The notes under the pieces are model-generated. The model ran no database searches. It saw nothing but the letters and a program-made list of their open reading frames with translations, and was not told the DNA's origin. DNA of 64,000 nt, taken from Candidatus Pacebacteria bacterium CG_4_9_14_0_2_um_filter_40_15 (GTDB lineage Bacteria; Patescibacteriota; Microgenomatia; UBA1400; PJMF01). Below are positions 6,608-39,310 of this stretch, piece by piece (the stretch's first letter is position 1; each line of letters opens with the position of its first letter). Location: NCBI GenBank assembly GCA_002788675.1, contig PFRS01000005.1:199767-263766 (forward strand). Direction: 5' to 3'. The position numbers were made by a program, and so were the translations under genes.

Positions 6608-6620
6608 TTTTTACTAAATG

Positions 6621-24812: not shown

Positions 24813-25682
24813 ATGAACTCACTCACCGCCGCCCTCACCACAATCCGCAGATCTCCCTACCAGGCTTTGGTCTCGATTCTTATGGTCAGTGTTACCTTTT
24901 TTGTTGCTTATATCTTTAGTTTTTTCATTGCTGGCGCTAACGAAGTACTGAGTTACTTCGAGACGCAGCCACAAATTATTGCCTTTTTCGAACTTGAAAC
25001 CCCGAGTAGCAGCATTGATTCGCTCAAAAAAAAGATGGAGAGTCAGTGGTATGTCGATTCAGTCAAAATTGTTACCCAAGATGAAGCTCTGAAAATTTAT
25101 CAAGAAGACAATAAAACTGATCCACTCCTTCTGGAGTTAGTCACAGCTGACATTCTGCCAGCTAGTATCGAAGTAGCAGCTAAAGATCTGAATTCCCTTG
25201 TTCTTGTAAAAGATGAACTCGAAAAAGCTCCAGATATTGAAGATGTCGTTTATCAAGAAGATATTGTAAAAACACTTGGTTCTTGGACACAATCTGTCCG
25301 TATGATTGGCGCTGGTGCCATTCTCACGTTAGCAACCATTTCATTCTTAATAATCATGATTGTGGTTGCCATGAAGGCAGCACATAAACGAGGTACCATT
25401 AAAATAATGCGCTATATAGGCGCAACGTCTTGGTATATTAAGCTTCCATTTCTCCTTGAAGGCGTGCTCTATGGCATGATTGGTTCACTTCTTGGTTTTG
25501 GCGCCACTATGGCCGCTCTTATGTATGCTTCCCCTTGGGTTTCTGAATTTTTAGGTGAAGTTCACATATTCCCTATACCGCCCGAATTCTTAGCTGCCCA
25601 AGTAGGAGCTGGCACAGTAGCTGGAATGCTTCTTGGCGGCTTTGCTGGTCTCTTGGCAGTACAAAGATTAATAAAGCAGTAG
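24813..25682 (+). CDS. ftsX: Cell-division permease FtsX
   Basis: 4-TM FtsX topology with a periplasmic loop. It follows ftsE by 3 nt. Confidence 0.8.
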   Translation: MNSLTAALTTIRRSPYQALVSILMVSVTFFVAYIFSFFIAGANEVLSYFETQPQIIAFFELETPSSSIDSLKKKMESQWYVDSVKIVTQDEALKIYQEDNKTDPLLLELVTADILPASIEVAAKDLNSLVLVKDELEKAPDIEDVVYQEDIVKTLGSWTQSVRMIGAGAILTLATISFLIIMIVVAMKAAHKRGTIKIMRYIGATSWYIKLPFLLEGVLYGMIGSLLGFGATMAALMYASPWVSEFLGEVHIFPIPPEFLAAQVGAGTVAGMLLGGFAGLLAVQRLIKQ

Positions 25683-25684
25683 CT

Positions 25685-26971
25685 ATGCGAACTCACTCCA
25701 CTGGCTTTTTCCACACTTGGCCGTCACTTTTGCGGAAGTTTTCTATTGGAATTTTTGCGGCACTCTGTATTTTTTCCACACTGAGTATTACTCCAACTTC
25801 TGTTTCTGCAGAGGCATGTGACGAAAACTGTAACAAAGATGCAGATGATAGCGAATACCTCCAATGTATTTCTCGTAAGAAGGAATGTCTAGAAAAAGAA
25901 CTTTCAGTCATTTCAGATCAAAAGAACACCCTCAACAACACTATTAGCCTGATTAGTGGCAACATTAGAGTTCAAGAGATACAAATTTCTCAGACAACGG
26001 CAGAAATCCGTGCACTCGAAAAAGAAATCACCGAACTCGACCAACGCATCGGTGGCCTCAACATTTCCCTTGATCGCCTCACCTCACTGTTAGTCAATAG
26101 AATTCGCAGCCAATATAAGCGCAATCGCGTCTCACCACTAGCACTCTTTACCAAGGCAGATACTTTCAACTCATTCCTTACACAGTATAAATACATTGGT
26201 CATGCTGGTGAACAAACCGCCAAGGCCATGAGCCTCGCCGAGTCCCAACGACTACTCTATGACGATCAAAAAACACTCAAAGAGGAAAAACAAACCGAGT
26301 TCCAGGCAAAAACTAACCAATTGCAAAGTCAGAAAACCGAACTCGACCGACAAAAATCAGAACAGACCGCTATCTTGGGAGTTACCAAAAATAATGAGGC
26401 AAAGTATCAAGAACTCCTGGCTGAGGCCCAAAAAGAACTCCAACAAATTGCCGACGCTGCCAACGTAGTTATCCGTGAAGGCAATGGAGTGCCCGTTAAA
26501 AAGGGTGAAACCATTGGTACTATGGGAAATTCAGGATTCTCGACCGGAGCCCACCTGCACTTTGGCGTGTATCGTTACAGTGCAGATCAGTTTGGTCAAA
26601 CCTCAAGTTGGGGGTGGTACTATAGTAACTACGTAAATCCAATTGAAAAACTCGGACCTACATCTGTTACTTGGGATACAGGCTGTGGCCATGATCCCAG
26701 TGGCAATCAGACATCAGGAAACGGCAGCTGGCAGTGGCCAATGACATCATCACGCATTACCCAAAACTATGGTTCAAATACCTGTTACAACTGGATGTAC
26801 GGCAATAAGCCACATCCTGCAATCGATATTGTTGGCATGGGTTCTAAATCTGTCACCGCCGTTGAGGATGGCGAAGCCTACTTCTGCAGGAACTGCCTCA
26901 ATGATGGAGGTAATGGTGTTTTCGTTTTTCATAGTGACAACTACATGACTTTGTACTGGCATCTTCAGTAA
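25685..26971 (+). CDS. Peptidase M23 family murein hydrolase/activator (EnvC-like) with coiled coil and Cys-rich C-terminal domain
   Basis: Signal peptide and a long coiled coil. M23 motif GTMGNSGFSTGAHLHFGVY (HxH). There is an extra ~130-aa C-terminal domain with 6 Cys. Confidence 0.8.
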   Translation: MRTHSTGFFHTWPSLLRKFSIGIFAALCIFSTLSITPTSVSAEACDENCNKDADDSEYLQCISRKKECLEKELSVISDQKNTLNNTISLISGNIRVQEIQISQTTAEIRALEKEITELDQRIGGLNISLDRLTSLLVNRIRSQYKRNRVSPLALFTKADTFNSFLTQYKYIGHAGEQTAKAMSLAESQRLLYDDQKTLKEEKQTEFQAKTNQLQSQKTELDRQKSEQTAILGVTKNNEAKYQELLAEAQKELQQIADAANVVIREGNGVPVKKGETIGTMGNSGFSTGAHLHFGVYRYSADQFGQTSSWGWYYSNYVNPIEKLGPTSVTWDTGCGHDPSGNQTSGNGSWQWPMTSSRITQNYGSNTCYNWMYGNKPHPAIDIVGMGSKSVTAVEDGEAYFCRNCLNDGGNGVFVFHSDNYMTLYWHLQ

Positions 26972-27059
26972 CTACTTGATCAATTCAACTCCCGATTCCC
27001 CATTGATATCTTTATATTTTTTACTATCTTCACTCAGAAATAGTGCAATCCTATAACTA

Positions 27060-27088
27060 TTGACAAAGCGACTTAGTGGTGATATAGT
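27060..27088 (+). promoter_or_regulatory. Sigma70 promoter TTGACA-17-TATAGT preceded by conserved AATCCTATAAC element
   Basis: Hexamers plus an upstream element shared with three other promoters in this region. Confidence 0.5.
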
Positions 27089-27169
27089 ATGCAATAGTAA
27101 TAACAGCAGACAAGCTGATTGGAGCCTACAACCACTCCAACTAGTAGATTCTGCACAAAAGGGAAACAT

Positions 27170-27505
27170 ATGAAAGCATTAAAACTCACCTTAGCTGGTG
27201 TTCTTGCTACAGCAACAATGCTCAGCTTCTCAACTGTGGTTTCTGCAGATACAGCTGAACAGTCACAATCTGCTGACCAAAAAGTAACAGTTAAATGTAC
27301 AACTGGTTCTTATGGACAAGACTCAACTTGTGAAGCTTCTGGAGAGCAATCTCTCGAGCAATCACAAAAGATTGTCTATACCAACGTTCTTGGTAAAACC
27401 CATGAGCCTGTTGATACAGCTCTCGACTTTGGTACTGCATCTGCAGCTGCCATGAGTTTAGTAACTGGTGCTGGTGCACTCGTACTTAAACGTAAGATTG
27501 CTTAA
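27170..27505 (+). CDS. Small secreted protein with C-terminal hydrophobic segment + KRK (sorting-signal-like)
   Basis: Signal peptide MKALKLTLAGVLATATMLSFSTVVSA. C-terminus ...GTASAAAMSLVTGAGALVLKRKIA. The start is set at the second Met; the ORF track starts at 27119. Confidence 0.55.
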   Translation: MKALKLTLAGVLATATMLSFSTVVSADTAEQSQSADQKVTVKCTTGSYGQDSTCEASGEQSLEQSQKIVYTNVLGKTHEPVDTALDFGTASAAAMSLVTGAGALVLKRKIA

Positions 27506-27529
27506 TTTCAACATTTGAAGCTAATTAGA

Positions 27530-27555
27530 AAGACCCCTTAACAGGGGTCTTTTTA
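27530..27555 (+). terminator. Rho-independent terminator (AGACCCC-ttaaca-GGGGTCT + T5)
   Basis: 7-bp GC-rich stem with a U-run. Confidence 0.75.
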
Positions 27556-27601
27556 GTTGTAGATGCTATGAGCAGTTTACTCAAGAATTAGTCCCATAGT
27601 A

Positions 27602-27630
27602 TTGACATATGTTAATGATCGTGTTATAAT
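27602..27630 (+). promoter_or_regulatory. Consensus sigma70 promoter TTGACA-17-TATAAT (with upstream CCCATAGTA element)
   Basis: Both hexamers are perfect and the spacing is 17. Confidence 0.6.
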
Positions 27631-27636
27631 ACTCTT

Positions 27637-27991
27637 ATTAGTGATGCACAAGCGTCACTCGCATACAACCAACATTAAACATTTCACTCTTGGTTGTAGA
27701 ACCGCTCATACATAAAATAGACACCTGTTGACAGCTGTCAGGCATTTACGAATGCTCTTCACCTGTCAACATACCGCATCTTGGCATTAGTGCCAAATCC
27801 TGCGGGCGAGACAGAAGCTGTTTTCAGATTTATCTGGAAACTGCACCTTAACAGGTATACAGAAAAAAGAAATTTCATTTCCTCTTGTAATTGGGAAAGA
27901 CAGAATTTGGTCGTTGTGCAACCCACAATGGGCGCGTTTATTGGTTGTAGCGTGCTCATTGTGGGTTGCAGACCCAGATTTTTGTTTTTTT
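27637..27991 (+). ncRNA. Candidate ~350-nt structured non-coding RNA or regulatory 5' leader of the 28072 gene
   Basis: It is bounded by a consensus promoter and a 14-bp hairpin plus U-run. It contains multiple internal inverted repeats: CAACCAA/TTGGTTG, TGTTGACAG/CTGTCAACA, TTGGCA/TGCCAA. The only ORFs are two short overlapping ones on opposite strands with no SD. Confidence 0.3.
27917..27991 (+). terminator. Long hairpin (TGCAACCCACAATG...CATTGTGGGTTGCA, 14 bp) + U-rich tract
   Basis: Perfect 14-bp inverted repeat with a 26-nt loop, followed by GACCCAGATTTTTGTTTTTTT. Confidence 0.55.
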
Positions 27992-28071
27992 AAATTTAAG
28001 GCGGGGTCTTCCCGCCGACCTGGATCTGCATCCCGCGGACCAGGAAATATACCCTATTTACGGAGGCTCAA

Positions 28072-29223
28072 ATGAAGAAAGTACTATCTTTCATGTTCTT
28101 AGCAGTTTTATTGTCCGCGTGCCGGATCCCCGGCACTGATTTCGTTATTTTCGAAAGCATTGCTGAAGAAAGTAGCGTAATTGTAGTTGTCGAACCCACC
28201 CCAACCCCTAGCCCAACTCCTGTTGTGGCTATTGAAGACGCTGCTTTTCAATGGGTTCCCGGCGTAGATGCTCGTATTGACAATCTGTTCACTGATCCCA
28301 ACCATGCTTATGGTACCGATACCAATGTTGCATGTGGGACCCCCAACAATGCTGATGGGGTTATTATTCCAGGAGATGCTGTGTATTCAGCCGAAGATCT
28401 CCGCTACATGGAAGAAGGTGATCATGATTATCCCAATGATATCTATGTCGATTGCAAAAATTTTATCGGATGGCAACTACGCATTCTTGATCCCGAAATG
28501 CCCAAAAGCGAAACTGCCGAAGCAACTGCAACCCCGGCCGCTGAAGTTGAAAACACCGATCCAATTGGTGAAGAAGTTTTAACCGCTGATGGTACCTGGC
28601 GCGTCAAGCTGTGGCAAGATTTGTCATATGGCCCTGAACTGGGTCACAGCCGTCCTGGCTTCGGAACTTCAATTAATGAGATTGGCATCGCCGTTGGCGT
28701 TGACCTGTCCGTTATCATTGATGGTAAAGAAGTAATGCTCGGTGGTGGATGTAACCAAATCGCCGTTATGCCAGAAAGTTACGCCCGCGACGCGGGTGGG
28801 AACGACTGGGGCTACCGCTCATACCAGTTCAATCCTGAGGTCACGCAGGCCTTGGATGAACTCGTGGTGCTGAACCACGAATGGGCACGTGCGCAGATTA
28901 ACGACGAAGATTGTCCCGAACTGTCCGACGAAGAACTGCTGATTCACACCTTTGTGTTTTGGCAAGATTCTGAAGGCGTAGATCACCTCCAACCATGGCA
29001 AGAGTTCCGTCGGGCAACCGGCGAGGACAATGTCATCATGGTTCACCCGTCTGACGGGGCCATGATCGGTTGGCATTGTGGCGAAGGCGACAGCCAAGAC
29101 AACCTGGCCGACAACGGCCAGTGTTTTGTCGAGGATGTTAACTTCTGGGGTTACCTTGGTGGTGGCGTTGTCCACCCCTGGGAAGGTGAAGTCCCGGCTA
29201 ATACCGTAGACGTCACCAAATAA
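28072..29223 (+). CDS. Lipoprotein of unknown function, markedly GC-rich (putative horizontally acquired)
   Basis: Lipobox LLSAC and SD GGAGG. Codon usage is rich in GCC/GGC/CCC, with local GC visibly ~50-55% against ~38% around it. It has a Pro/Thr linker and an acidic domain. Confidence 0.65.
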   Translation: MKKVLSFMFLAVLLSACRIPGTDFVIFESIAEESSVIVVVEPTPTPSPTPVVAIEDAAFQWVPGVDARIDNLFTDPNHAYGTDTNVACGTPNNADGVIIPGDAVYSAEDLRYMEEGDHDYPNDIYVDCKNFIGWQLRILDPEMPKSETAEATATPAAEVENTDPIGEEVLTADGTWRVKLWQDLSYGPELGHSRPGFGTSINEIGIAVGVDLSVIIDGKEVMLGGGCNQIAVMPESYARDAGGNDWGYRSYQFNPEVTQALDELVVLNHEWARAQINDEDCPELSDEELLIHTFVFWQDSEGVDHLQPWQEFRRATGEDNVIMVHPSDGAMIGWHCGEGDSQDNLADNGQCFVEDVNFWGYLGGGVVHPWEGEVPANTVDVTK

Positions 29224-29370
29224 CCCTTTTCAATTCTGTATACCTATCGCCGCCAGACCACAAGTCTGGCGGCATAGCCAAAGTCAATAATTTTCACAAA
29301 GAATTGTTGCTTTTGACTATGCTCGTACAAATAAATAGTAAAAATTAAGCGCTTTGCGCGGAAAAGTACT

Positions 29371-29598
29371 ATGACAAAAATTTTAACAACACTGTTACTT
29401 TTTCTTTCACTCGTTTCGATGTCAGCATTTGGATACTTCTTTATGCTTACAAAACAAGCTGAAGTAAGAAACCAAGCTATTGCCGATTGTGCAGCAGCAT
29501 ATCGCTACAGCTTTAGTGAAAGTTCAGGAGCTACCATAACTGTTCCTGTTAGTGACAAATTTGATGAATGTTTACAACTTAAACACATCGAAAAATAA
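29371..29598 (+). CDS. Small secreted protein (75 aa)
   Basis: Signal peptide and 2 Cys, with a terminator downstream. Confidence 0.4.
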   Translation: MTKILTTLLLFLSLVSMSAFGYFFMLTKQAEVRNQAIADCAAAYRYSFSESSGATITVPVSDKFDECLQLKHIEK

Positions 29599-29614
29599 AC
29601 ATTAAAAATAAGTT

Positions 29615-29640
29615 AAAAGCCGGGTAAAACCGGCTTTTTT
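29615..29640. terminator. Bidirectional rho-independent terminator (AAAAGCCGG-gtaaaa-CCGGCTTTTTT) between convergent genes
   Basis: A GC stem flanked by an A-run and a T-run. Confidence 0.7.
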
Positions 29641-29667
29641 CGTGTTTTAAACACATTTTCATGGGGA

Positions 29668-31530
29668 TTATTCCCTTACTACCCAATTGTCTTGATTTAT
29701 GACCCATCCAGGAGCTTCTAGCTGTATATCTGGGTTCTCCCAAAAGATCTTAAAACTTACCCAATCAGAAACATCTATTGGGCCTGCTACAAAGCCACGT
29801 TCTGCACCAATACTCTTCCATTCAGGTGAAAATAAAACTGAAGAATCCATCCCAGGAATGCCCCCGACTTCAAGTTGTGTGTCCTTTTCTAGATTCCAGA
29901 GTTCTAACCAGAGCGTATTTTCGGTTCCTTTTATAACAAATTCGGGTTCAATTACTCTGAAAACCGTAAAGATGTCGCCTTCATAGACTACAGGATACCT
30001 TGACCAGAAGTGATCTATGTATGGATCTATATCACACATACGTCCCGGATAGTTTCTGCTATCGACTAAGATGTAGTCTTTAGGCTCAAATTTTTGATAA
30101 TCAGAAATTCTGAGACTAAATGATTGCCAAGATGGACAACTTTCAAAAAAGCGAAACCCCAATACATTTCCATCTCTTTCTAGAGTATTTAGGACAAAGG
30201 GTGAATACTCTTCAAGAATGGTCAGTACTTTAGCATCCTTCTCAATCATTGATTGAATACCGGTATACTCAGATTGCATGGACTCGTTCCAAAGTTCATA
30301 TGAACCAAACGAAGCATAGGCTTGAATGTACTTCCACCAACTTATCGGACCAAACCAAGTTCCCATAAGTATATCTAGAACTAACAGCAACATACCAAAA
30401 AATTGAGCAACACCGCTCTGTTTATATAACGTTCTAACCAAATCAAAGAAACTAGATGCGCCCACACCAAATAATAAAGCAGCTGGTAAAACCCAGGGTA
30501 ATGCATAGTAATCGTGCGTTCGTGTTCCCCAAGAAAGCAACGCTGTCAACAAAATACAGCTTAATACCCATGTTACTAAGACTGTTGAAGAAAATCGTGA
30601 GTTTTTTTTAACTGAAACAAACAGACCCACCGATGCAAAGAAACCGCCAAGTGGAGTGAGTAACTCACCAAATAATCTTTCAGTTCCAAAGGTAATTGGC
30701 CACTGTGTCTCCTTCCAAAATGGAAAATACCCCTTATGACCATGCATAAGCGTAAGAAAATCGGGATCTGAGCGAACCGAATCTGGAAAGGTGGCTATCC
30801 ACAGACGCCAGAGCAATAACAAAAGTAAAGGTATACCCAGTGCAAGTACTGCTTGAACCAAGAATGTAGCGACTTGTTTGTTTTTTCTGGTCCCAATAAG
30901 TACTTTTACTAACTGTTGCAGATGTTCTCCAAAAAGAGCTACAAATAAAAGTAGTCCAAAAAGTACGTAACTTGGTTTTGAAAGTATTGCCAACCCAAAT
31001 CCAAGACTCATCACGAGTAACCACTTACTATTAGTTTTAGCCTTCACCGCAGCATAGACAGATAAGGAAAATCCAAAAAGTGACAGAATATCAGGAGTAA
31101 CCGCTCTTCCCCAGAATGAAAACCCCGGAAAAAACTGCATAGCAACTGCACCAACTGCACCAGGCAAATCTGACTTAAATAACAGTCTGCCAGTTAAAAA
31201 AACAATAACTCCAATGCCACATGCAAGCAAAATGTTTACAAATCTGACTGCAACTAGACCAGTAGACACAGTCGAGACAAAACCAATGATAGCTTCATAA
31301 AAAGGCACTTCTGCTAAAAAATATCTCCCAGTGTTGGCTGGATCTGGGGCATGATAAAAGGTTGGAGCAAAAAAACTAGCTTCACCAGAGGCCAACTTTT
31401 GGCTAATTACCCAAGTATCTGTCTGCCTGAAATTGTGCCTGTCAACAAGTGGTCGCTCTATATTGTAGAGGCGCGAGAGAATACCAGCTACAAAAATACA
31501 CAAAAATACCACCCAGAATCTCTTTTTCAT
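29668..31530 (-). CDS. GT-C fold membrane glycosyltransferase, GT39/GT83 (PMT/ArnT)-like, with C-terminal soluble domain
   Basis: ~11 TM helices over 430 aa. The N-terminal region RLYNIERPLVDRHNFRQTDTW...FYHAPDP resembles the first loop of PMT_2/ArnT-like enzymes. There is a ~200-aa C-terminal extracytoplasmic domain. The start is probably MKKRFWVV. Confidence 0.45.
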   Translation of the reverse strand: MKKRFWVVFLCIFVAGILSRLYNIERPLVDRHNFRQTDTWVISQKLASGEASFFAPTFYHAPDPANTGRYFLAEVPFYEAIIGFVSTVSTGLVAVRFVNILLACGIGVIVFLTGRLLFKSDLPGAVGAVAMQFFPGFSFWGRAVTPDILSLFGFSLSVYAAVKAKTNSKWLLVMSLGFGLAILSKPSYVLFGLLLFVALFGEHLQQLVKVLIGTRKNKQVATFLVQAVLALGIPLLLLLLWRLWIATFPDSVRSDPDFLTLMHGHKGYFPFWKETQWPITFGTERLFGELLTPLGGFFASVGLFVSVKKNSRFSSTVLVTWVLSCILLTALLSWGTRTHDYYALPWVLPAALLFGVGASSFFDLVRTLYKQSGVAQFFGMLLLVLDILMGTWFGPISWWKYIQAYASFGSYELWNESMQSEYTGIQSMIEKDAKVLTILEEYSPFVLNTLERDGNVLGFRFFESCPSWQSFSLRISDYQKFEPKDYILVDSRNYPGRMCDIDPYIDHFWSRYPVVYEGDIFTVFRVIEPEFVIKGTENTLWLELWNLEKDTQLEVGGIPGMDSSVLFSPEWKSIGAERGFVAGPIDVSDWVSFKIFWENPDIQLEAPGWVINQDNWVVRE

Positions 31531-31588
31531 ATATCTATAATAGCAGTTTTTAGCCAAGTTGTCTCATATTTAATATAATCCTATAATA

Positions 31589-31617
31589 TTGACGTATTAC
31601 TGTTTCCGTGTTATAAT
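31589..31617 (+). promoter_or_regulatory. Sigma70 promoter TTGACG-17-TATAAT preceded by ATAATCCTATAATA element
   Basis: The 19-nt block ATAATCCTATAATATTGAC is identical to the one at 32468-32487. Confidence 0.55.
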
Positions 31618-31722
31618 TACCTCAAGTTAAGTAATTTTGCTTGACTGTATATCCTGAAATACTAGCGCATGCAGACGCTGCGTAATGTATTTTAGGACTG
31701 CACATTCACATAGGAGAAAAAA

Positions 31723-32412
31723 GTGAAAAGAATCTTATTGATCCTAGGGACATTCGTTCCTACAATTCTTATTCTGTTCGTCTCATCTGTGGTTTTTGCT
31801 AAACCAGCAGATCTGACAGCCACTGTGTTTGGTAGCGGTGAAACCTTTACCATTACGGTAGAAGGCGGCACAGGCCTCGAGCAAATCGAAGCCTATACAC
31901 CAAACCAATTGGTCTTTACACCGGAATGGACTTTGATCACCACTAATACATACCAGGCCGTGATCACAAGCACTACTGGCTGGGACAGCTTCACGCTGTT
32001 CTGGAAAGACCAAACCTGGGTAGATCAACATGACACCTGGGAAAATAACGGTGACGGTTTTATGGTCCGCGCTCAAACACCGCCGGCACCACAACCAAAT
32101 CCAATTACTGCAACCGTTACTGGTCAAGGTGAAAGCTTTACCATAACGGTAGAAGGCGGGACAGGAACCGAGCAATTAGAAGTGTACCGACCTGATCAGT
32201 ATGTCTTTACGCCGGATTGGACGCTAGTTACAACTGGCACCTATCAGGCGATCATAACAGACACAACGGGTTGGGACAGCTTCACGCTGTTCTGGTTAGA
32301 TCAAACCTGGGTTGATCAACATTCTACCTGGGAAGATAACGGTGACGGCTTTATGATTCGTTCACCTAAACAGGTATTTTGGTCCTTCCTTCCGTTCATT
32401 CGGAAGGACTAG
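31723..32412 (+). CDS. Secreted protein built from two tandem ~84-aa repeat domains; GC-elevated
   Basis: GTG start with SD AGGAG and a signal peptide. Repeat units share TITVEGGTG.EQ.E.Y.P.Q.VFTP.WTL.TT.TYQA.IT.TTGWDSFTLFW.DQTWVDQH.TWE.NGDGFM.R. Confidence 0.7.
   Translation: MKRILLILGTFVPTILILFVSSVVFAKPADLTATVFGSGETFTITVEGGTGLEQIEAYTPNQLVFTPEWTLITTNTYQAVITSTTGWDSFTLFWKDQTWVDQHDTWENNGDGFMVRAQTPPAPQPNPITATVTGQGESFTITVEGGTGTEQLEVYRPDQYVFTPDWTLVTTGTYQAIITDTTGWDSFTLFWLDQTWVDQHSTWEDNGDGFMIRSPKQVFWSFLPFIRKD
31819..32361 (+). repeat. Tandem direct coding repeat, 2 x ~252 nt (~80% nt identity) separated by a 39-nt Pro-rich linker
   Basis: Repeats 31819-32070 and 32110-32361 share an identical 25-mer CTGGGACAGCTTCACGCTGTTCTGG. 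Confidence 0.8.
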
Positions 32413-32426
32413 TTCTCCTCTGTGTT

Positions 32427-32468
32427 AGCCCCCGGCCTCTGAAAAGAGATCCCGGGGGCTTTCTATTT
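32427..32468 (+). terminator. Rho-independent terminator (AGCCCCCGG...CCGGGGGCT + TTTCTATTT)
   Basis: 9-bp GC-rich stem. Confidence 0.65.
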
Positions 32469-32482
32469 ATAATCCTATAATA

Positions 32483-32511
32483 TTGACAAATCACCATTTA
32501 AATGCTATACT
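32483..32511 (+). promoter_or_regulatory. Sigma70 promoter TTGACA-17-TATACT preceded by ATAATCCTATAATA element; near-leaderless transcript for GT2 gene
   Basis: The -10 ends 10 nt before ATG 32522. The track ORF start at 32483 is the TTG of the -35 itself. Confidence 0.55.
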
Positions 32512-32521
32512 TGTATCTAGT

Positions 32522-33382
32522 ATGAAACAAAAAGACACACATACACCAATAATCAGTGTCGTTATGCCTGTGCACAATGCAGCGGCGTACGTTTCCCAAG
32601 CAATTGAGAGTATTCTCAATCAAACTTTCACTGATTTTGAGTTTATTATTCTCGATGACTATTCTACCGACGATTCTCTTACGATTATTAAAAAATGGTC
32701 TAAAACAGATTCTCGCATTAAAGTCATCTCTAACACCAAAAAACCTGGTGTAAGTTCTGCGGCCAATCAGCTACATGCTGCGGCACAAGGAATGTATATA
32801 GCCCGTATGGATGCTGATGACATTTCAGAACCTACTCGACTAGAAGTGCAGCTTTTAGTTTTCAAAAAGTATCCTAAAACAGTTGCCGTTGGTAGCCAGT
32901 GTACCGTTATTGATGAAAATAACGCTACTATTGGTGAAAAAACTTTTCCTACAAAGCCTTCAGACATTAAAAAGATGTCTGGATATCTCTATCCTGTGCA
33001 ACAGCCTTCTGTGATGTTTGCTACCAAACGTATTCCATCAGATTTTGTCTGGTATGACGAATCACTTTCATCTGCTGAAGAACATGAACTCCTCTTTAAG
33101 CTTATGCAGTTTGGTGACATTCGAAACACAAAAGAATCACTTTTACAGTATCGATTACATGCAACTAATACTTCAAAAGTACATCCTAAAAAGGATTACT
33201 CAGCCATCCTGAGAGCCCGAATCACTGGATTCACTACCTATGGCGTACCACTTACAGCTAAAGCTGTAGTACTTAACATTGTTCAATTCATCTTTGTAAG
33301 CCTCTTACCTGAGAAGGCACTCTTTAGCATATTCAGCCTCCTTAGAGGCATGAACAGAAAGGAGACCGCATATGAAAAATAA
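32522..33382 (+). CDS. Family 2 glycosyltransferase
   Basis: N-terminus ISVVMPVHNAAAYVSQAIESILNQTFTDFEFIILDDYSTDDS (GT-A fold, DxD region). Confidence 0.8.
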   Translation: MKQKDTHTPIISVVMPVHNAAAYVSQAIESILNQTFTDFEFIILDDYSTDDSLTIIKKWSKTDSRIKVISNTKKPGVSSAANQLHAAAQGMYIARMDADDISEPTRLEVQLLVFKKYPKTVAVGSQCTVIDENNATIGEKTFPTKPSDIKKMSGYLYPVQQPSVMFATKRIPSDFVWYDESLSSAEEHELLFKLMQFGDIRNTKESLLQYRLHATNTSKVHPKKDYSAILRARITGFTTYGVPLTAKAVVLNIVQFIFVSLLPEKALFSIFSLLRGMNRKETAYEK

Positions 33383-34127
33383 ACAACTATTACCATCACT
33401 CTCTCTCTTTTATCCTGCATATAATGAGGCAGGAAATATTGAGGAAGCAGTAAAACAAGCACTCCAAGTGCTTCCAACTGTTGCTAAAAAATTTGAGATC
33501 ATTGTTATTAATGATGGAAGTAAAGATGCAACCTTAACTATTTCGAAGCGTTTAGCTAAGCGATATGCACCGGTTCGTGTAATTACACAAAAGAACCGAG
33601 GATATGGTGGTGCACTTAAACGTGGCTTTAAAACTGCCAAGTATGAGTGGATCTTCTTTACAGACTCAGACTTACAGTTTGACTTATCTGAACTCCAACG
33701 GTTCATACCACATACTAGAAATAATAAAATTGTCATTGGCTACCGTAAGCAGCGTGCAGAAGGTAAAAATCGACAGATGCTTGCTACTATGTTAAAAATC
33801 TGGAGTAAAGTTATCCTGGGATTCCCTTCAGGTGTAAAAGATATTGACTGTGCTTTTAAGTTAATTCATAAGTCTGTGCTCAACACAGTCGGTGAATTAA
33901 AATCAGATGGTGCTATGGTATCTACTGAGTTCTTACTAAAAACACATTTAGCAGGGTTTACCATTAAACAGCTTGGTGTAACTCATCAGCTCAGAATGCA
34001 TGGTACTCAAACGGGTAATAATCCTATGGTTATCGCTAAAGCCATTAAAGACACATTCGTACTTAAACAATCACTTGTTCAAGAGTATGTCATGCAAAAG
34101 CAAGCACAGCTTGCATCACTAGCATAA
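33372..34127 (+). CDS. Polyprenyl-phosphate glycosyltransferase (GtrB/DPM1/ArnC-like GT2)
   Basis: LSLFYPAYNEAGNIEEAV...FEIIVINDGSKDAT...QKNRGYGGALKRGF...FFTDSDLQFD matches the DPM1/GtrB polyprenol-P-sugar synthase pattern. It overlaps the upstream GT2 by 11 nt. Confidence 0.7.
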   Translation: MKNKQLLPSLSLFYPAYNEAGNIEEAVKQALQVLPTVAKKFEIIVINDGSKDATLTISKRLAKRYAPVRVITQKNRGYGGALKRGFKTAKYEWIFFTDSDLQFDLSELQRFIPHTRNNKIVIGYRKQRAEGKNRQMLATMLKIWSKVILGFPSGVKDIDCAFKLIHKSVLNTVGELKSDGAMVSTEFLLKTHLAGFTIKQLGVTHQLRMHGTQTGNNPMVIAKAIKDTFVLKQSLVQEYVMQKQAQLASLA

Positions 34128-34149
34128 TCCAGACTACAATGGGTGTGCA

Positions 34150-37100
34150 ATGATACAGCGTATTACCCAACACTTTCGACGTTTTTTTACACCTCATATT
34201 ATGCTGTTAGCCTTGTGCTGGCTTGCTATTGTGTTTACGAATTTCAATCCGGGCACTTGGCTCATTGGTTGGGATAATCTCATTCCTGAAGTAAATATTT
34301 TCCTAAACCTGTACAAAACAATCTTTTCTGCTTGGCAAAGTTGGCAAGGTCTGGGTATAGTTGGTGGCATTGCTCATGCTTCAGAACTGAGCCGAGAACT
34401 CATACTTCTCCCCTTTGCACTTATTCTTCCTGGTGAACTCATTAGATACATCTGGACTTTTGCAATGCTGTTAGTTGGAATGCTTGGTACCTACCACTTA
34501 GCACTTTGGCTACTAAAAGAGTCTAAGCATTCAACATGGATAGCCTTAGTAGTAGCTGTAGCCTATACTTTTAATTTAGCAACTATTCAAAACTTTTTTG
34601 TACCATTAGAAGCCTTCTCAACTTTTTGGGGCTTTTTTCCTCTATTTTTATTGACTGCTTTTAAGCTGGTCAAAAATCCTAGCAAAAAAAGTATCTTTTT
34701 CTTTGCGCTGATACAGTTTCTTGGAGCTTCTGCCTTTCACGTCCAAACTATGTTTATCGTGTATTCACTTGTGTTAGGTATTTTCACGCTAGCAAGTCTA
34801 ATCAGCTCTCGTGGACAAAACATTAAGGCACTTTGTGTACTTTGGATAACACTCATTCTTGTGCATTTTTATTGGCTCGCACCAGTTGGCTACTTTACCC
34901 TTACAAATGCACAGCAAACTGTGGATTCGAAACAAAATAGTATTTCCACACAAGAAGTTTTTGAATCTAATAAAGCCGCAGGATCACTTACCAATATACT
35001 CAGACTAAAGGGATATTGGTTTAACTATACAGATAGCAACCCAAATGGGACCCAGTATCTTATGGATGCATGGGAAAAACATACCAACTCACTGCCGGTT
35101 GCTGTGGGAAGTATCTTGATAAGTCTTGTTGGTATTGGGGGATATATTCTCTATCTTAGATCCTTGGATGCAGATACACATGTTCGCACAGAATATATCG
35201 TGTTCTTCCTCACAGCAACACTGCTAGCAATTTCAATGCTCACAACAGGTAAAGGCATAGTTGGGCTAGGCTATACAGTCATTACAAAATTACCGCTCCT
35301 TGGACAAGTCTTTAGAGTTCCATTCACCAAGTGGTCTGTGGTACTTTCACTCTTCATTTCAATTGGAATTGGCTATTTTCTCAGCTATGTTACTGCACAA
35401 AAAAAACTATTGGTTATGGGTGCGACAGCACTCTTTATTGCATTGGCTAGCATTTTTAGCGCAGCGCCTCTCTTTAGTGGCGGACTCTTTTATAGTAACG
35501 TACAACTTTCACTGCCCAGTGCCTATTCTCACTTATTCGAAGAACTCTCAACACAACCAACCACTAATCGGATTCTCTACCTTCCTTTTGATGACTTTTG
35601 GGGATGGATGAATCATGATTGGGGCTACCGAGGAAGTGGTTTTATTTGGTACGGAATAAAGCAACCAATCATTGACAGAAATTTTGATGTGTGGAGTGTA
35701 AGAAATGAGACACTCTACACACAACTTCAACAAACACTCCAAACCAAAAACACAGCCGAGACAGAGATTTTACTTGATAAATATGACATTTCTCTACTTT
35801 TAATCGACACCAGCATACAAGCCAATCAAAAAAGAAAACAAGAAACTGCCGATACTATTCAAGCATTAGAAAAAACTGGGTACATATCTAAAATTTGGGA
35901 AGACGACTTTCTCAGTCTCTATAAAACAACAATTGAATCAGGTGAATTACAGGTAACTCATTCAGAAGGTATCCAACCACTTGAAAAAAGACTCATTACT
36001 GATACTGTGGCATATGCTGGTAGCTACTACTTTGACTCAAATAGTCAGCTGCATCTGCCCCTACAGAATCTACTCACTGAATCAATTTCAAGTCAGCGAA
36101 TGCAAGTTCAAAATGATCAGATTGTAGTACCACTTCTGAACCAAGCATCAAAAATCACCATCCCCTCATTAGAAGGAATGAAACAAATGTATGGTATTCA
36201 GCTGATTGGAAATAAGCTCACTATTGAACCAATCGCACCTCTTCACTTGCTAGATACAAAAACAAATACAACCCGAGACATCTACTCTTTGACAAAAATG
36301 GAGTACACTTTCGATACCTTAGGAAAGAAAATTTATCTAGATATCAACGACACTCTTTTCACATTGAATGAAACTGAGTATCGACAAATTATTCTTCCAG
36401 AAATAATTTCTCAACCAGTTACCATGAAAATATCTAGTGCTGAAGATATTTCCACAGTTGATGAAAATACGTTACAAAGCACTCGATACCAAGAATTACA
36501 TGTCCCCTCAACGCTTTGGCAGGACTTGCTGAGCGAGAAAATACTTGAATCCGGACCAGATGAGCAATTGTTACTAGCAACTCTGAGTGAGCTCTTACCC
36601 TTTGACGCATCAGATACTGTTGCAAATAATTGTGATGCACTTTCTCGGGGAACTACAGCTAAACAAATAACTGACCAACATACCAGTGTGTATACTTCTA
36701 ATGATTTTGGCATCTTCTGTGATGGAAGTTCTACTCAAAAAATGCAAGCAAACCAAGACCATTTCCTAAAGATAACCGCCACTAATACAACTGGCTTGCC
36801 ACTCAGATTTTATATTAAAAATAATGCTACAGAAACTATTTTGCTAGAACAGGTACTCACTGATTCAGCTAACTACTTCTTCGTTCCTCAAGACATTTCT
36901 AACGGTAACCTATCAGTGAATATCCAAAATAAATCCACCGGAACTCTGAGTAAAAATACTCTTATAGACGTCAGTCTCCATGAACTCCCTATTCATTTAG
37001 CACTACTGGGGAAAATTAAAGTCAGTCCAGTCTCTTCAAATGCTGTTGAGACACAGTCAACAGAAGAATCGCCATCAGATCTTTCAGTATCAAAATTTAG

Positions 37101-37482: not shown

Positions 37483-37544
37483 AACAACGGGCTAGTCCAT
37501 TTCACGCTACACTTCCTGTCACTTTCACCCCCTAAACTATACAT

Positions 37545-38411: not shown

Positions 38412-38802
38412 CTCAATAAAAATTGCTGGTAAGCCGCTGTCTGTCTGGATTAATGCATTCCTACCACCTCTCCTTTGGGCAGGTGTTATTTTCTTTTTCT
38501 CATCAAGAAGTGAGCTGCCTTCAGCGTCATACTCATCCTTAGACTTTATCTTTAAAAAAATGGCTCACATCACTGTTTTTTCGGTATTGTTCATCTTTAT
38601 GGACAGAGGATTCAGAGTATATTCAAGAAATTATTCACTCAGAAAACATTGGTATTTACCGGTATTCATTTGTTTTGCCTATGCAATGAGTGATGAAATG
38701 CACCAATACTTCGTACCAAATCGGCACCAAACATTCAGAGATGTGGGGTATGATATGCTGGGTGTATTCACCATGTACCTCTATAAAACTGACCGCATCT
38801 AA
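38380..38802 (+). CDS. VanZ-like family membrane protein
   Basis: 4 TM. The conserved block AMSDEMHQYFVPNRHQTFRDVGYDMLG resembles the VanZ DE.HQ.F.P.R....D...D..G signature. Confidence 0.55.
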   Translation: MFWNKKKSFLSSIKIAGKPLSVWINAFLPPLLWAGVIFFFSSRSELPSASYSSLDFIFKKMAHITVFSVLFIFMDRGFRVYSRNYSLRKHWYLPVFICFAYAMSDEMHQYFVPNRHQTFRDVGYDMLGVFTMYLYKTDRI

Positions 38803-38910
38803 TGTTGATAAAACATGAACAACAAACACTTCCTAGACAATACTAATTCAAATAGACTACAATAGAAATACTTATATTGTCTATAATTTGCCCGTAGATC
38901 CAAGTAAAAT

Positions 38911-38959
38911 AGAGACTGAATCTTGACAACTATTTTTAGTAGATTACACTACAGTCTCT
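38911..38959 (+). promoter_or_regulatory. hup promoter (TTGACA-16-TACACT) embedded in an 8-bp inverted repeat AGAGACTG...CAGTCTCT
   Basis: The inverted-repeat arms bracket the -35/-10 region. It is a possible operator. Confidence 0.4.
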
Positions 38960-39010
38960 AACTTAAGTTTTTGAAACAAAAATAAATATAAATGGTTTAG
39001 AAAGGTCTTT

Positions 39011-39286: not shown

Positions 39287-39310
39287 ACGCTACGTTACTT
39301 TAAAAATGTA

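What the first reader, a model, noticed from the sequence alone, without database searches (positions are those of the whole stretch)
28000..32412. Two secreted-protein genes with strongly elevated GC content: candidate horizontally acquired surface proteins
The lipoprotein gene 28072-29223 and the tandem-repeat protein gene 31723-32412 are visibly GC-rich (runs of GCC/GGC/CCG/GGG codons). Local GC is about 50-55%, against a ~38-40% background seen for example in ribosomal genes. Both have signal peptides, and both are driven by the shared-motif promoters. Their flanking terminators (32427-32468) and the leader region (27991-28060) are also GC-rich. This is the compositional signature of recent acquisition or of strong selection, and both may be host/partner-interaction surface proteins.
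Basis: seen in the sequence. Interest (0 to 1): 0.55.

Follow-up and report, generated by a model that had tools for sequence, protein, structure and literature searches.

The report
GC-rich envelope genes behind a new leader RNA
Two secreted-protein genes of a Microgenomates (Pacebacteria) genome really are GC-rich, but they were inherited rather than recently acquired: their relatives in the same genomic slot are GC-rich too, and one gene lies behind a conserved structured RNA that is not in Rfam.

Summary
Gene A (28072-29223) has GC 0.504 and GC3 0.48. Gene B (31723-32412) has GC 0.474 and GC3 0.47. The window has GC 0.393, and its genes have mean GC3 0.29.

Recent horizontal acquisition is not supported. 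Gene A has orthologues in at least 8 related genomes, always in the same syntenic slot. Its distance pattern agrees with that of its neighbours. In every genome it is the GC outlier (GC3 0.48-0.72 against 0.27-0.54), although synonymous sites are nearly saturated. Gene B has one distant homologue (25% identity), in the same slot, and that gene is GC-rich too. Neither gene has a relative outside the clade.

The GC-rich zone is confined to the coding sequence. It combines Lys-poor, acidic protein composition with avoidance of A-ending codons.

Gene A has no recognisable promoter of its own. It sits behind a promoter at 27602-27630 and a roughly 435-nt highly structured leader that carries a terminator-like hairpin. 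The leader holds an invariant motif that occurs in 64 Microgenomates contigs. The RNA family around this motif shows strong covariation, has no Rfam match, and usually precedes GC3-rich secreted-protein genes from unrelated families.

Why the composition is maintained remains unresolved.

The parts
27593..27630 (+). Promoter of the leader and gene A transcript. It consists of the locus-specific upstream motif CCCATAGTATTGAC followed by TTGACA, 17 nt and TG-TATAAT.
   Evidence: The motif was found with 2 mismatches and occurs only 3 times in the window. The promoter scan scores 12/12 with an extended -10. The same motif lies 188-313 nt upstream of the conserved junction motif in L004, L007, L010, L027 and L063.
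27636..27990 (+). Structured 5' leader RNA. The approximate 5' end is inferred from the promoter.
   Evidence: The fold of 27636-28074 has MFE -165.6 kcal/mol and z = -8.98 against shuffles. Positions read as four-fold sites of a spurious ORF in the leader are 81% identical between the window and L001, against 26-56% in most real genes of the two loci (62% in the 75-aa gene, 74% in 27170-27505). No Rfam match at E <= 1.
27843..27864 (+). Invariant junction motif GCACC-TTAACAGGTATACAG-AA, the core shared with the Microgenomates RNA family.
   Evidence: This is the only strictly conserved block in the alignment of six gene-A leaders. The exact 22-mer variant occurs in 22 GTDB genomes and 42 metagenome contigs, where about 1 is expected by my own estimate. 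The covariance model R1 hits 27779-27867 with 18.2 bits.
27909..27991 (+). Terminator-like element. It is a long hairpin (arms 27918-27930 and 27957-27969, extended by GGTC/GACC) followed by the U-run TTTTTGTTTTTTT.
   Evidence: Read from the sequence and present in the MFE structure. The scan flags 27962-27976 plus a T-run. It is conserved in L001.
27992..28071 (+). Distal leader with two GC-rich hairpins (GGCGGG..CCGCC and CCTGG..CCAGG) and the Shine-Dalgarno sequence GGAGG at 28062-28066.
   Evidence: Read from the sequence. GC is 0.514. No promoter-like site lies on the + strand between 27630 and the ATG.
28072..29223 (+). Gene A, a 383-aa lipoprotein. Signal peptide and lipobox occupy 28072-28122 (Cys17). 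An N-terminal part specific to the window and L001 runs to about 28581. The conserved roughly 215-aa Cys/Trp/Gly-rich C-terminal domain occupies 28582-29223.
29243..29275 (+). GC-rich hairpin directly after gene A (GCCGCCAGAC-CACAA-GTCTGGCGGC). No U-run follows it.
   Evidence: Read from the sequence. In the A-family loci the first 60 nt after the stop are GC-rich, and GC then drops to 0.29-0.45.
29371..29598 (+). Conserved 75-aa membrane-anchored, Cys-containing partner gene (family F3). It follows the GC-rich slot gene in 12 loci and has background composition.
   Evidence: GC3 is 0.22.
29668..31557 (-). PMT_2-type membrane glycosyltransferase with background composition. It separates the two GC-rich genes.
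   Evidence: Pfam PF13231 and PF02366. GC3 is 0.325.
31580..31617 (+). Promoter of gene B, an exact copy of the motif CCTATAATATTGAC with TTGACG, 17 nt and TG-TATAAT.
31723..32412 (+). Gene B, a 229-aa secreted protein. Its signal peptide occupies 31723-31800. Two roughly 93-aa repeats lie at 31819-32097 and 32104-32382. A short hydrophobic-basic tail closes the protein.
   Evidence: GC is 0.474 and GC3 is 0.474. Its only relatives are P0006 (same strain) and P0016 (25% identity, same slot in L012). It gives weak sub-threshold matches to GGTG-motif Ig-like repeats of the SprB, Y_Y_Y and Big_9 types.
32427..32468 (+). Terminator hairpin of gene B (GCCCCCGG...CCGGGGGC followed by TTTCTATTT).
   Evidence: Read from the sequence. 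GC is 0.571.
32474..32511 (+). Third copy of the promoter motif. It drives the GT2-GT2-1110 aa operon.
   Evidence: The same motif stands in front of the GT2 genes in L001, L004 and L012.

Best explanation
Genes A and B are long-resident, clade-restricted envelope proteins of a Microgenomates cell-surface and glycosylation locus. The locus order is FtsEX - M23 - small anchored protein - [leader RNA] - A - 75-aa protein - PMT - B - GT2 - GT2 - 1110-aa membrane protein - LTD.

Their high GC is an inherited property bound to the coding sequence of the genes in this slot. It is not a footprint of recent transfer. It has two layers. The first is an unusual amino-acid make-up: Lys is 1.8-2.2% against 7.6% in the background, and Asp, Glu, Gly, Pro, Trp and Val (Thr in B) are raised. 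The second is a strong synonymous preference for C/G-ending codons and against A-ending codons, which is the opposite of what the ribosomal and translation-factor genes of this genome use.

The trait persists in every orthologue although synonymous sites are close to saturation, so an ongoing force must keep it. I infer, but have not shown, that this force is selection acting on the mRNA or on its translation.

Expression of gene A is conditional. Transcription starts at a locus-specific promoter about 435 nt upstream. It then runs through a very stable, conserved leader RNA that belongs to an uncatalogued Microgenomates RNA family. It meets a terminator-like hairpin with a U-run about 80 nt before the Shine-Dalgarno sequence, so gene A is made only when this block is read through. 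This attenuation or antitermination step is also inferred. Gene B and the GT2 operon carry the same promoter motif and probably belong to the same regulon.

What is shown: composition, synteny, vertical pattern, RNA conservation and covariation, and the positions of the promoter and terminator motifs. What is inferred: the read-through mechanism, its trigger, the reason for the codon bias, and the surface function.
For: Composition:
- See for the window values.
- Gene A orthologues against their own loci: 0.539 vs 0.425 (L001), 0.617 vs 0.429 (L004), 0.599 vs 0.466 (L007), 0.589 vs 0.395 (L009), 0.577 vs 0.411 (L010), 0.595 vs 0.545 (L005). Their GC3 is 0.59-0.72.
- At four-fold sites of the orthologues, A is 0.06-0.16.

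Synteny and vertical inheritance:
- Synteny.
- Pairwise identities agree with those of the neighbours. Among L004, L007, L009 and L010, gene A is more conserved (0.59-0.70) than GT2 (0.50-0.57), the big membrane protein F6 (0.35-0.38) and M23 (0.50-0.54).
- Between the window and L001, four-fold site identity in gene A is 0.44 (expected 0.32). Most neighbours give 0.26-0.56, so gene A shows no extra synonymous constraint and its GC is not a recent relic.
- The GC-rich zone starts about 60 nt inside the coding sequence and ends within 60 nt after the stop.
- The gene B homologue in the same slot of the distant L012 has GC3 0.555 against 0.39 in its neighbours.

No outside relatives.

Highly expressed genes have GC3 0.20-0.30.

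Leader RNA:
- Promoter and terminator scan.
- Fold z = -8.98.
- The invariant motif occurs in 64 further contigs.
- Loop-anchored covariation of two hairpins: 75.7% paired vs 46.2% and 83.6% vs 47.7%, with 0/500 shuffles reaching the observed value.
- In the covariance-model alignment of 35 RNAs, 93% of cells are paired against 65% in shuffles, and all 35 pairs show double-sided changes.
- No Rfam match.
- The first gene downstream is GC3-richer than the rest of its locus in 19 of 24 loci, with a mean excess of +0.118 and p = 4e-4.
Against: - No expression data were available. The 355-nt RNA could be a free-standing small RNA that ends at the terminator, with gene A transcribed from a promoter the consensus scan does not recognise.
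- The window's leader is a divergent subclass. It lacks the two conserved loops of the main class, and the covariance model scores it only 18.2 bits. Its membership therefore rests on the junction motif plus synteny.
- The cause of the codon bias was not tested. GC-rich secreted genes also occur upstream of the main RNA copy (families F8 and F12), so the composition may belong to a protein class rather than to the leader.
- Gene B is absent from the closest relative, L001. That requires either a loss in L001 or a later gain in the window's lineage.
- The dinucleotide signature of gene A is somewhat atypical: delta* is 0.1225, and only 3% of equal-sized windows reach that value.
Confidence: 0.6

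Rival explanations
1. Recent horizontal transfer from a higher-GC donor, with the composition not yet ameliorated.
For: The composition is atypical. The dinucleotide signature of gene A lies in the top 3% of windows. Gene B is absent from the closest relative L001. Each gene has its own promoter and terminator.
Against: Gene A has syntenic orthologues whose identities agree with their neighbours, in at least 8 genomes, and all of them are GC-rich. Synonymous sites between the window and L001 are near saturation, yet GC3 stays high. No homologue exists outside the clade. No integrase, tRNA or repeats other than promoter copies flank the genes. The gene B homologue in L012 shares the slot and the composition at only 25% identity.
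Confidence: 0.04
2. GC-biased gene conversion. The slot is a recombination hot spot for surface-protein alleles, and repair bias drives G+C upward in the exchanged tract.
For: Both G and C rise at four-fold sites in most orthologues. The slot carries unrelated families between conserved flanks in different lineages, which fits exchange through the flanks. The repeats of gene B are 78% identical, while those of its 25%-identical homologue are much more diverged, which suggests conversion within the gene. An association between recombination and GC3 in bacteria has been published (PMC4450053).
Against: The GC-rich zone stops at the ends of the coding sequence. The leader (0.42-0.44), the downstream spacer (0.395) and the next gene (GC3 0.22-0.47) are at background. 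The gene A tree agrees with its neighbours, and gene A is more conserved than they are. In the window the shift is mostly A to C (C 0.36, G 0.15) rather than symmetric. No recombination data were available.
Confidence: 0.18
3. Ancient transfer into the ancestor of the clade, or repeated replacement of the slot occupant from a GC-rich gene pool, followed by slow amelioration.
For: Different lineages hold unrelated families in the same slot: L004 has the A family, L049 has F187 and L025 has F9, and hhalign gives probability below 1%. All occupants are GC3-rich.
Against: GC3 of gene A does not follow host GC3. It is 0.72 in L009, where neighbouring genes have GC3 0.30-0.39, and 0.48 in the window (window-wide ORF mean 0.29). 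Orthologues at 43-74% identity have had ample time to equilibrate. No member of any such pool was seen outside Microgenomates.
Confidence: 0.1
4. The composition is only a side effect of the amino-acid usage of extracellular proteins (cheap, acidic, Lys-poor residues and Pro/Thr linkers), with no force acting at the nucleotide level.
For: Lys is 1.8-2.2% against 7.6%, and Gly, Pro, Asp, Glu, Trp and Val (Thr in B) are raised. GC1 of gene A is 0.63 against about 0.50.
Against: The largest shift is at synonymous sites. GC at four-fold sites is 0.51-0.58 against 0.23, and the same holds in all orthologues. Other secreted proteins of the window are not GC3-rich: the small anchored protein has 0.25 and the LTD protein 0.34.
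Confidence: 0.05
5. The conserved RNA is an independent non-coding RNA gene (a trans-acting or housekeeping RNA) that merely neighbours the variable slot. Gene A would then be regulated separately, and the RNA would have nothing to do with the composition.
For: In the window the RNA has its own promoter and a terminator-like end. Its distance to the next long ORF varies from 90 to 970 nt. Only one copy of the exact motif was found in each of the 22 GTDB genomes that carry it.
Against: The RNA is on the same strand as the downstream secreted-protein gene in every locus where one was called. In L007 and L027 it runs up to the Shine-Dalgarno sequence, which can pair with an upstream CUCCU (my reading). 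Paralogous second copies precede further GC3-rich secreted genes. No promoter-like site lies between the terminator and gene A.
Confidence: 0.2

Closest known systems
O-antigen and capsule gene clusters of Enterobacteria with the JUMPStart/ops leader and the NusG paralogue RfaH (own knowledge; RfaH as activator of xenogene-like operons, PMC7593976)
   Same: Both are cell-surface loci whose variable genes keep a composition unlike the rest of the genome over long times. Both lie between conserved flanks and hold different gene sets in different lineages. Both are preceded by a long untranslated leader with a short invariant element, and both appear to need help to read through termination signals.
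   Different: The anomaly here is GC-rich in an AT-rich genome, the reverse of the enterobacterial case. The genes encode secreted proteins rather than sugar-pathway enzymes. The invariant element (UUAACAAGGCAUACAGG) is unlike ops (GGCGGTAGNNTG). It is embedded in an RNA with covarying helices, which ops does not require. No NusG paralogue was looked for.
Riboswitch or attenuator leaders, and antitermination RNAs such as EAR of Bacillus eps operons or LoaP-dependent leaders (PMC12691694; EAR from own knowledge)
   Same: The element lies in the 5' untranslated region on the same strand as the gene. It has a conserved multi-helix structure with covariation and invariant loops. The part that could control expression varies between loci: a terminator-like hairpin with U-run in the window and L001, and possible pairing to the Shine-Dalgarno sequence in L007 and L027. 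The associated genes are envelope and glycosyltransferase genes.
   Different: It matches none of the 4227 Rfam 15 families. No ligand or protein partner is known. The leader is much longer (about 350-800 nt) than most riboswitches. Several paralogous copies occur in one locus.
Classical genomic islands (atypical composition arising from recent transfer)
   Same: The genes have atypical G+C and codon usage, each has its own promoter and terminator, and they encode surface-exposed products.
   Different: The slot is syntenic and the inheritance vertical. The orthologues share the anomaly. No integrase, tRNA or att-like repeats are present. No donor-like homologues exist.
Ig-like repeat surface proteins (Y_Y_Y, SprB and Big_9 repeats), compared with gene B
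   Same: Gene B has tandem roughly 90-aa repeats that look beta-rich, with a T-I-T-x-x-G-G-T-G motif. It gives weak phmmer matches to multi-repeat surface proteins.
   Different: No Pfam model reaches its threshold on gene B. There are only two repeats, and the C-terminal half of each repeat (W-D-S-F-T-L-F-W..W-V-D..G-D-G-F-M) is distinctive.

Membership tests
Recently acquired genomic island | Composition deviates from the host genome | tested here: met
   GC is 0.504 and 0.474 against 0.393. GC at four-fold sites is 0.51 and 0.46 against 0.23.
Recently acquired genomic island | Absent from close relatives, or present at a different place (patchy distribution) | tested here: not met
   Gene A occupies the same slot in L001, L004, L005, L007, L009, L010 and L027. 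Gene B is absent from L001 but present in the same slot of the distant L012.
Recently acquired genomic island | Homologues in a plausible donor outside the clade, or on phages or plasmids | tested here: not met
   All relatives come from the same syntenic slot of related Microgenomates contigs. PHROGs gives nothing. The viral structure library gives nothing. The plasmid and phage DNA collections were not searched.
Recently acquired genomic island | Mobility signatures such as an integrase, a flanking tRNA or direct repeats | tested here: not met
   Neighbours are FtsX, M23, PMT_2 and GT2. The only tRNA in the window is at 6620-6694. The only repeats around gene B are the two promoter copies.
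Recently acquired genomic island | The anomaly is specific to the recipient, so orthologues elsewhere match their own genomes | tested here: not met
   Every gene A orthologue, and the gene B homologue, is a GC outlier in its own locus.
Bacterial lipoprotein (gene A) | Signal peptide ending in a lipobox [LVI][ASTVI][GAS]C | tested here: met
   MKKVLSFMFLAVLLSA-C17 was read from the translation. Several orthologues have an uncleaved-looking N-terminal helix or an AxA site instead. No predictor was run.
Cis-regulatory leader RNA (riboswitch or attenuator kind) | Conserved secondary structure supported by covariation | tested here: met
   This was met for the main class. It was not shown for the window's own subclass, which has only 2 close sequences.
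Cis-regulatory leader RNA (riboswitch or attenuator kind) | Lies in the 5' untranslated region on the same strand as the controlled gene, between promoter and start codon | tested here: met
   The promoter is at 27602-27630, the RNA follows, and the ATG is at 28072. The orientation is the same in every locus where a downstream gene was called.
Cis-regulatory leader RNA (riboswitch or attenuator kind) | An expression platform (terminator/antiterminator or sequestering of the Shine-Dalgarno sequence) | tested here: inconclusive
   A terminator-like hairpin with U-run lies at 27909-27991. Possible pairing to the Shine-Dalgarno sequence in L007 and L027 was read by eye. No alternative pairing was demonstrated.
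Cis-regulatory leader RNA (riboswitch or attenuator kind) | Binding of a ligand or factor that switches the structure | not testable with these tools
   This needs in-line probing or genetics.
Any Rfam 15 family | Score at or above the family's gathering threshold | tested here: not met
   No match at gathering threshold in 18 loci. No relevant match at E <= 1 in 12 loci or in window 25000-34000.
ops/JUMPStart-RfaH antitermination | An ops consensus GGCGGTAGNNTG in the leader, and a NusG paralogue in the genome | not tested
   By eye the invariant motif differs from ops. No pattern search for ops was run. No NusG paralogue was searched for, and only 64 kb of the genome is held.
Pfam Ig-like repeats (Y_Y_Y PF07495, Big_9 PF17963, SprB PF13573), for gene B | Pfam gathering score on the protein itself | tested here: not met
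   Gene B matches none of them at E <= 0.01. These families are seen only in its weak phmmer hits.

The most novel reading that the evidence does not exclude
Microgenomates may carry an undescribed, multi-copy family of large structured leader RNAs. The family has an invariant UUAACAAGGCAUACAGG junction and conserved ACGGCAGG and AAUUGC loops. Under this reading these RNAs gate a replaceable set of secreted envelope proteins. The peculiar composition of those genes (A-poor, C/G-ending, Lys-poor, using codons that are non-preferred in this genome) would be functionally tied to this dedicated control. This would be a mirror image of the AT-rich RfaH/ops-dependent surface operons of Enterobacteria. 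For example, the coding sequences might be terminated or left untranslated unless the leader recruits an antitermination or translation factor.
Probability: 0.3. Interest if true: 0.85.

Novelty: new variant of a known kind. Interest (0 to 1): 0.62.

Why it matters
For genome annotation, this is a clear case where atypical G+C does not mean recent transfer. The anomaly is inherited with the gene across species whose synonymous sites are nearly saturated. Some force therefore keeps a few envelope genes GC-rich in AT-rich, streamlined genomes. This makes the old question of why some surface loci never ameliorate testable in a second, independent system.

For Patescibacteria biology, the work defines a conserved envelope locus: a sortase and LPXTG protein or FtsEX-M23 upstream, variable secreted proteins, a small membrane partner, and glycosyltransferases. 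It also points to what may be the first natural candidate regulatory RNA reported for these bacteria. That RNA sits in front of the proteins most likely to meet a host or partner cell. Such an RNA would be both a handle on how these organisms control their surface and a possible tool for inducible expression.

Tried and rejected
- Protein-pattern scans of GTDB genomes and JGI metagenomes with the gene A alignment found nothing. The DNA motif of the leader worked instead.
- The first AF2 model of full-length gene A, built with 5 sequences, was poor (pLDDT 51). The C-domain with 9 sequences gave pLDDT 80.9, but only in one of five models.
- Profile and sequence searches of PDB found nothing useful.
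- RNAalifold on plain MAFFT alignments of the leaders found almost no structure, because helices of variable length were misaligned. I replaced it with loop-anchored gapless mini-alignments (A6, A7) and a hand-annotated covariance model (R1).
- tRNA or tmRNA as the identity of the RNA, or as an island anchor, was rejected.
- RNase P, SRP, 6S and group II intron were considered from sequence motifs. They were dropped because Rfam found nothing and the pairings did not fit.
- An overlapping antisense gene as the cause of the codon bias was rejected. The stop-free stretch in the codon-aligned antisense frame varies from 80 to 275 aa and is the expected by-product of avoiding A-ending codons.
- Extra synonymous constraint, which an RNA structure inside the coding sequence would produce, was not seen.
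- TRF does not detect the 72.5%-identical repeat of gene B.
- Literature searches for a described RNA motif in Microgenomates or Patescibacteria found none.

Full report
**1. Observation**

The window has 39.3% G+C. Among 67 mechanically called ORFs, mean GC is 0.395 +/- 0.032 and mean GC3 is 0.294 +/- 0.069.

Gene A (28072-29223, 383 aa) is the most GC-rich ORF, with GC 0.504 and GC3 0.482. Gene B (31723-32412, 229 aa) is second, with GC 0.474 and GC3 0.474. At four-fold degenerate sites G+C is 0.51 in A (0.58 in its C-terminal domain) and 0.46 in B. The 62 other genes give 0.229 +/- 0.091, with a maximum of 0.426.

The 2.5 kb between the two genes is at background. There are therefore two gene-sized anomalies, not one island.

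**2. What the genes are**

Gene A begins with a signal peptide and a lipobox (LLSA-C17). It has no Pfam, NCBIfam or PHROGs match. Gene B has a signal peptide (VFA|KP) and two roughly 93-aa repeats that are 78% identical. It also has no family match.

The neighbours are envelope genes:
- FtsX and an M23 peptidase
- a small C-terminally anchored protein
- a 75-aa membrane protein
- a PMT_2 glycosyltransferase
- two GT2 glycosyltransferases
- an 1110-aa membrane protein
- an LTD protein

A source names the organism Candidatus Pacebacteria bacterium CG_4_9_14_3_um_filter.

**3. Relatives and their context**

Among 5.8 billion clustered proteins, gene A has only 9 clusters of relatives. Every one whose contig could be read lies in the same slot. 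That slot comes after FtsE-FtsX-M23-small protein and a long non-coding stretch. It comes before a 75-79-aa gene, GT2 genes and a roughly 1100-aa protein.

In each genome the orthologue is the GC outlier:

| Locus | Gene A GC / GC3 | Locus GC |
|---|---|---|
| L001 | 0.539 / 0.588 | 0.425 |
| L004 | 0.617 / 0.703 | 0.429 |
| L007 | 0.599 / 0.710 | 0.466 |
| L009 | 0.589 / 0.719 | 0.395 |
| L010 | 0.577 / 0.655 | 0.411 |
| L005 | 0.595 / 0.648 | 0.545 |

Pairwise identities of gene A group the genomes as the neighbouring genes do. The window pairs with L001 and L007 pairs with L027. In the L004/L007/L009/L010 group, gene A (0.59-0.70) is more conserved than GT2, the big membrane protein or M23.

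Between the window and L001, identity at four-fold sites of conserved codons is 0.44 in gene A (0.32 expected from composition). Most neighbours give 0.26-0.56. Synonymous sites are therefore close to saturation and gene A shows no special synonymous constraint, yet both copies stay GC-rich. The GC-rich zone begins about 60 nt inside the coding sequence and ends within 60 nt after the stop.

An exhaustive phmmer search of 1.8 billion representatives with gene B gave three kinds of hit. The first was a copy from the same strain (L006, 1 mismatch in 11,118 nt). The second was a set of weak repeat-motif hits to giant Ig-like surface proteins. The third was one true full-length homologue, P0016, at 25% identity with the same two-repeat layout.

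P0016 lies directly upstream of GT2-GT2-1123 aa in L012. That genome is only distantly related (GT2 46-56%, HU 75% identity). The gene has GC3 0.555 against 0.39 for its neighbours. Gene B is missing from L001, L004, L007 and L009.

Recent acquisition is therefore not supported for either gene. There are no outside homologues, no mobility genes, and the only tRNA of the window is at 6620-6694.

**4. Nature of the compositional shift**

There are two layers.
- Protein level: Lys falls to 1.8-2.2% from 7.6%, and Asp, Glu, Gly, Pro, Trp and Val (Thr in B) rise.
- Synonymous level: A-ending codons are avoided and C/G-ending ones preferred. In gene A the four-fold sites have A 0.16, C 0.36, G 0.15 and T 0.33. 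The background has A 0.36, C 0.16, G 0.09 and T 0.39. In the orthologues A is 0.06-0.16.

The verified ribosomal proteins S5, L2 and L6, together with RpoA, EF-Tu and EF-G, have GC3 of 0.20-0.30. Genes A and B therefore use codons that highly expressed genes of this genome avoid.

The long stop-free antisense frame is a by-product of A3 avoidance and is not conserved in length. The Karlin dinucleotide signature is mildly atypical for A (top 3% of windows) and ordinary for B.

**5. The leader RNA**

A 567-nt non-coding stretch precedes gene A, and its orthologues have 410-670 nt. It contains the best promoter match of the region at 27602-27630 (12/12 with TG). In front of it is the motif CCTATAAYATTGAC, which occurs only three times in 64 kb: here, in front of gene B, and in front of the GT2 operon. 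No promoter-like site lies between it and the ATG.

The transcript 27636-28074 folds with -165.6 kcal/mol, z = -8.98. It contains a long hairpin followed by a U-run at 27909-27991, about 80 nt before the Shine-Dalgarno sequence.

An alignment of six leaders showed one invariant block, GC.C.UUAAC(A)AGGYAUACAG. An exact scan for GCNCNTTAACAAGGCATACAGG found 22 GTDB genomes and 42 metagenome contigs. The genomes are labelled Gottesmanbacteria, Woesebacteria, Microgenomates and Patescibacteria. Some MAGs carry a doubtful Gammaproteobacteria label. By my estimate about one hit would be expected by chance.

Rfam 15 has no match for the window region or for 30 of these loci. ARAGORN finds no tRNA or tmRNA there.

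Two hairpins were tested on gapless alignments anchored only on their conserved loops:
- The AWWYGC-loop hairpin has 75.7% of cells paired against 46.2% in shuffles, and covariation 0.671 against 0.191 (0/500 shuffles reach it).
- The NNGGCAGG-loop hairpin has 83.6% paired against 47.7%, and covariation 0.901 against 0.271 (0/500).

A hand-annotated covariance model (R1) recovers the RNA in all motif-bearing loci. On the 35 best hits, 93.0% of cells are paired against 65.0% in shuffles. All 35 pairs have double-sided changes. Slid controls score at most 0.127 against 0.583. This alignment is fitted to the model, but the anchored tests agree with it.

The window's own leader is a divergent subclass. 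R1 scores it 18.2 bits, mostly through the junction motif. Its membership rests on that motif, on synteny with L007, L010 and L027 (which carry the exact 22-mer in front of gene A orthologues), and on its very high conservation with L001.

**6. What follows the RNA elsewhere**

The first long ORF downstream is on the same strand. It almost always encodes a protein with a signal peptide, lipobox or N-terminal anchor, often with a Pro/Thr linker and cysteines.

Its GC3 exceeds that of the other ORFs of its locus in 19 of 24 non-redundant loci. The mean excess is +0.118, it ranks top in 16 loci, and Wilcoxon p = 4e-4.

These proteins belong to many families with no BLAST links to one another. Two of the slot families tested, F187 of L049 and F9 of L025, show no profile similarity to gene A, although L049 shares its flanks with L004. 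Over long times the occupant of the slot is therefore replaced, and every occupant is GC3-rich.

Weaker R1 hits 2.2-2.8 kb upstream on the same strand turned out to be paralogous RNAs. They have the same hairpins and a variant junction, GCAC-N-UUAACAGAGAGAGUUGA. Each lies 300-500 nt in front of another GC3-rich secreted gene.

**7. Interpretation**

Shown:
- The anomaly is real and confined to the coding sequence.
- It is shared by all relatives, and it is inherited with the gene.
- Gene A lies behind a conserved structured RNA with promoter and terminator motifs.
- The RNA belongs to a family absent from Rfam and from the literature I could search.

Inferred:
- Gene A is expressed by read-through of the leader's terminator.
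- Gene A, gene B and the GT2 operon form a regulon through the shared promoter motif.
- The codon bias is kept by selection at the mRNA or translation level.

GC-biased gene conversion (PMC4450053) remains a serious rival for the bias, but it fits the sharp gene boundaries poorly. Ancient transfer with slow amelioration fits the saturated synonymous sites poorly. Amino-acid usage alone cannot explain the four-fold sites.

**8. Comparison with known systems**

The closest analogue in logic is the enterobacterial O-antigen or capsule locus. Its variable surface genes have persistently atypical composition, lie between conserved flanks, and sit behind a long leader with an invariant element that recruits RfaH (PMC7593976). 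Here the sign of the anomaly is reversed, the products are proteins, and the leader is a large covarying RNA.

The leader works like a riboswitch, attenuator or antitermination RNA (compare LoaP leaders, PMC12691694). It is not a member of any catalogued family.

The C-terminal domain of gene A has no detectable fold relative. Gene B resembles Ig-like GGTG repeats only below threshold.

**9. Verdict**

The genes are vertically inherited, clade-specific envelope genes. Their GC-richness is a conserved and still unexplained trait. The most valuable by-product is an uncatalogued structured leader RNA family of Microgenomates linked to such genes.

Noticed in passing
L016:380-540(+), L019:4164-4320(-), L025:6215-6376(-), L028:4274-4434(-), L059:3096-3256(-), L029:3126-3280(-): These are second, paralogous copies of the leader RNA. 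They have the same hairpins and a variant junction GCAC-N-UUAACAGAGAGAGUUGA. They lie 2.2-2.8 kb upstream of the main copy on the same strand, and each lies 300-500 nt in front of another GC3-rich Pro/Thr-linker secreted protein gene.
   Followed up: partly
window 27170-27505 (+): This small secreted protein ends in a hydrophobic segment and a basic tail (..VTGAGALVLKRKIA). Its synonymous sites are unusually conserved against L001, with 74% identity at four-fold sites where 43% is expected. Neighbouring genes show about 26-56%.
   Followed up: no
window 25685-26971 (+): The M23 peptidase after FtsX is the third most GC3-rich gene of the window (0.43). Its Pfam matches look out of order: residues 267-298 match the end of the domain, while residues 341-426 match M23 family models again. 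This suggests a split or duplicated M23 domain behind a long coiled-coil.
   Followed up: no
window 31700-31710 (+): The 5' untranslated region of gene B carries GCACATTCACA directly before its Shine-Dalgarno sequence. This resembles the start of the leader junction (GCAC-N-UUAACA). The pattern GCACNTTMACA occurs 4 times in the window against 0.33 expected, but two of the hits lie inside coding regions.
   Followed up: partly
L043 (gene A orthologue, 271 aa): This metagenomic variant of the L027/L073 orthologue carries an internal in-frame duplication of about 21 residues (DCEDLTDTELLDHVWVVSQDPN appears twice). This is strain-level length variation inside the conserved domain.
   Followed up: no
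L006 vs window 30535-41652: A JGI metagenome contig matches 11,118 nt of the window with a single mismatch. Gene B is the only protein known to differ (P0006, 99% identical), so the one difference appears to fall in gene B.
   Followed up: partly
L001:8653-9465 and L007:7644-9591: The space between the small anchored protein and the leader is variable. L001 has an M50 peptidase there (GC3 0.57), L007 has a 413-aa protein and a GT2 (GC3 0.59-0.62), and the window has nothing. These inserted genes are also GC3-rich.
   Followed up: no
L017, L019-L022, L025, L029, L030, L033, L050, L052, L065, L069 (upstream of the RNA): In many main-class loci the RNA lies downstream of a sortase-like gene (family F2, with a QTCWPPG motif) and a roughly 220-aa protein that ends in LPSTG plus a membrane anchor (family F0). 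The whole neighbourhood therefore looks like a surface-protein display locus. This was read from the sequences, and Pfam was not run on these proteins.
   Followed up: partly
window 32390-32412 and the end of P0016 in L012: Gene B and its distant homologue both end in a short tail of the form W-x-(F/I)-(L/P)-P-F-(I/L)-(R/V)-(K/R), namely ..VFWSFLPFIRKD and ..LELWIPFLVR. This could be a C-terminal sorting or anchoring signal of unknown type.
   Followed up: no
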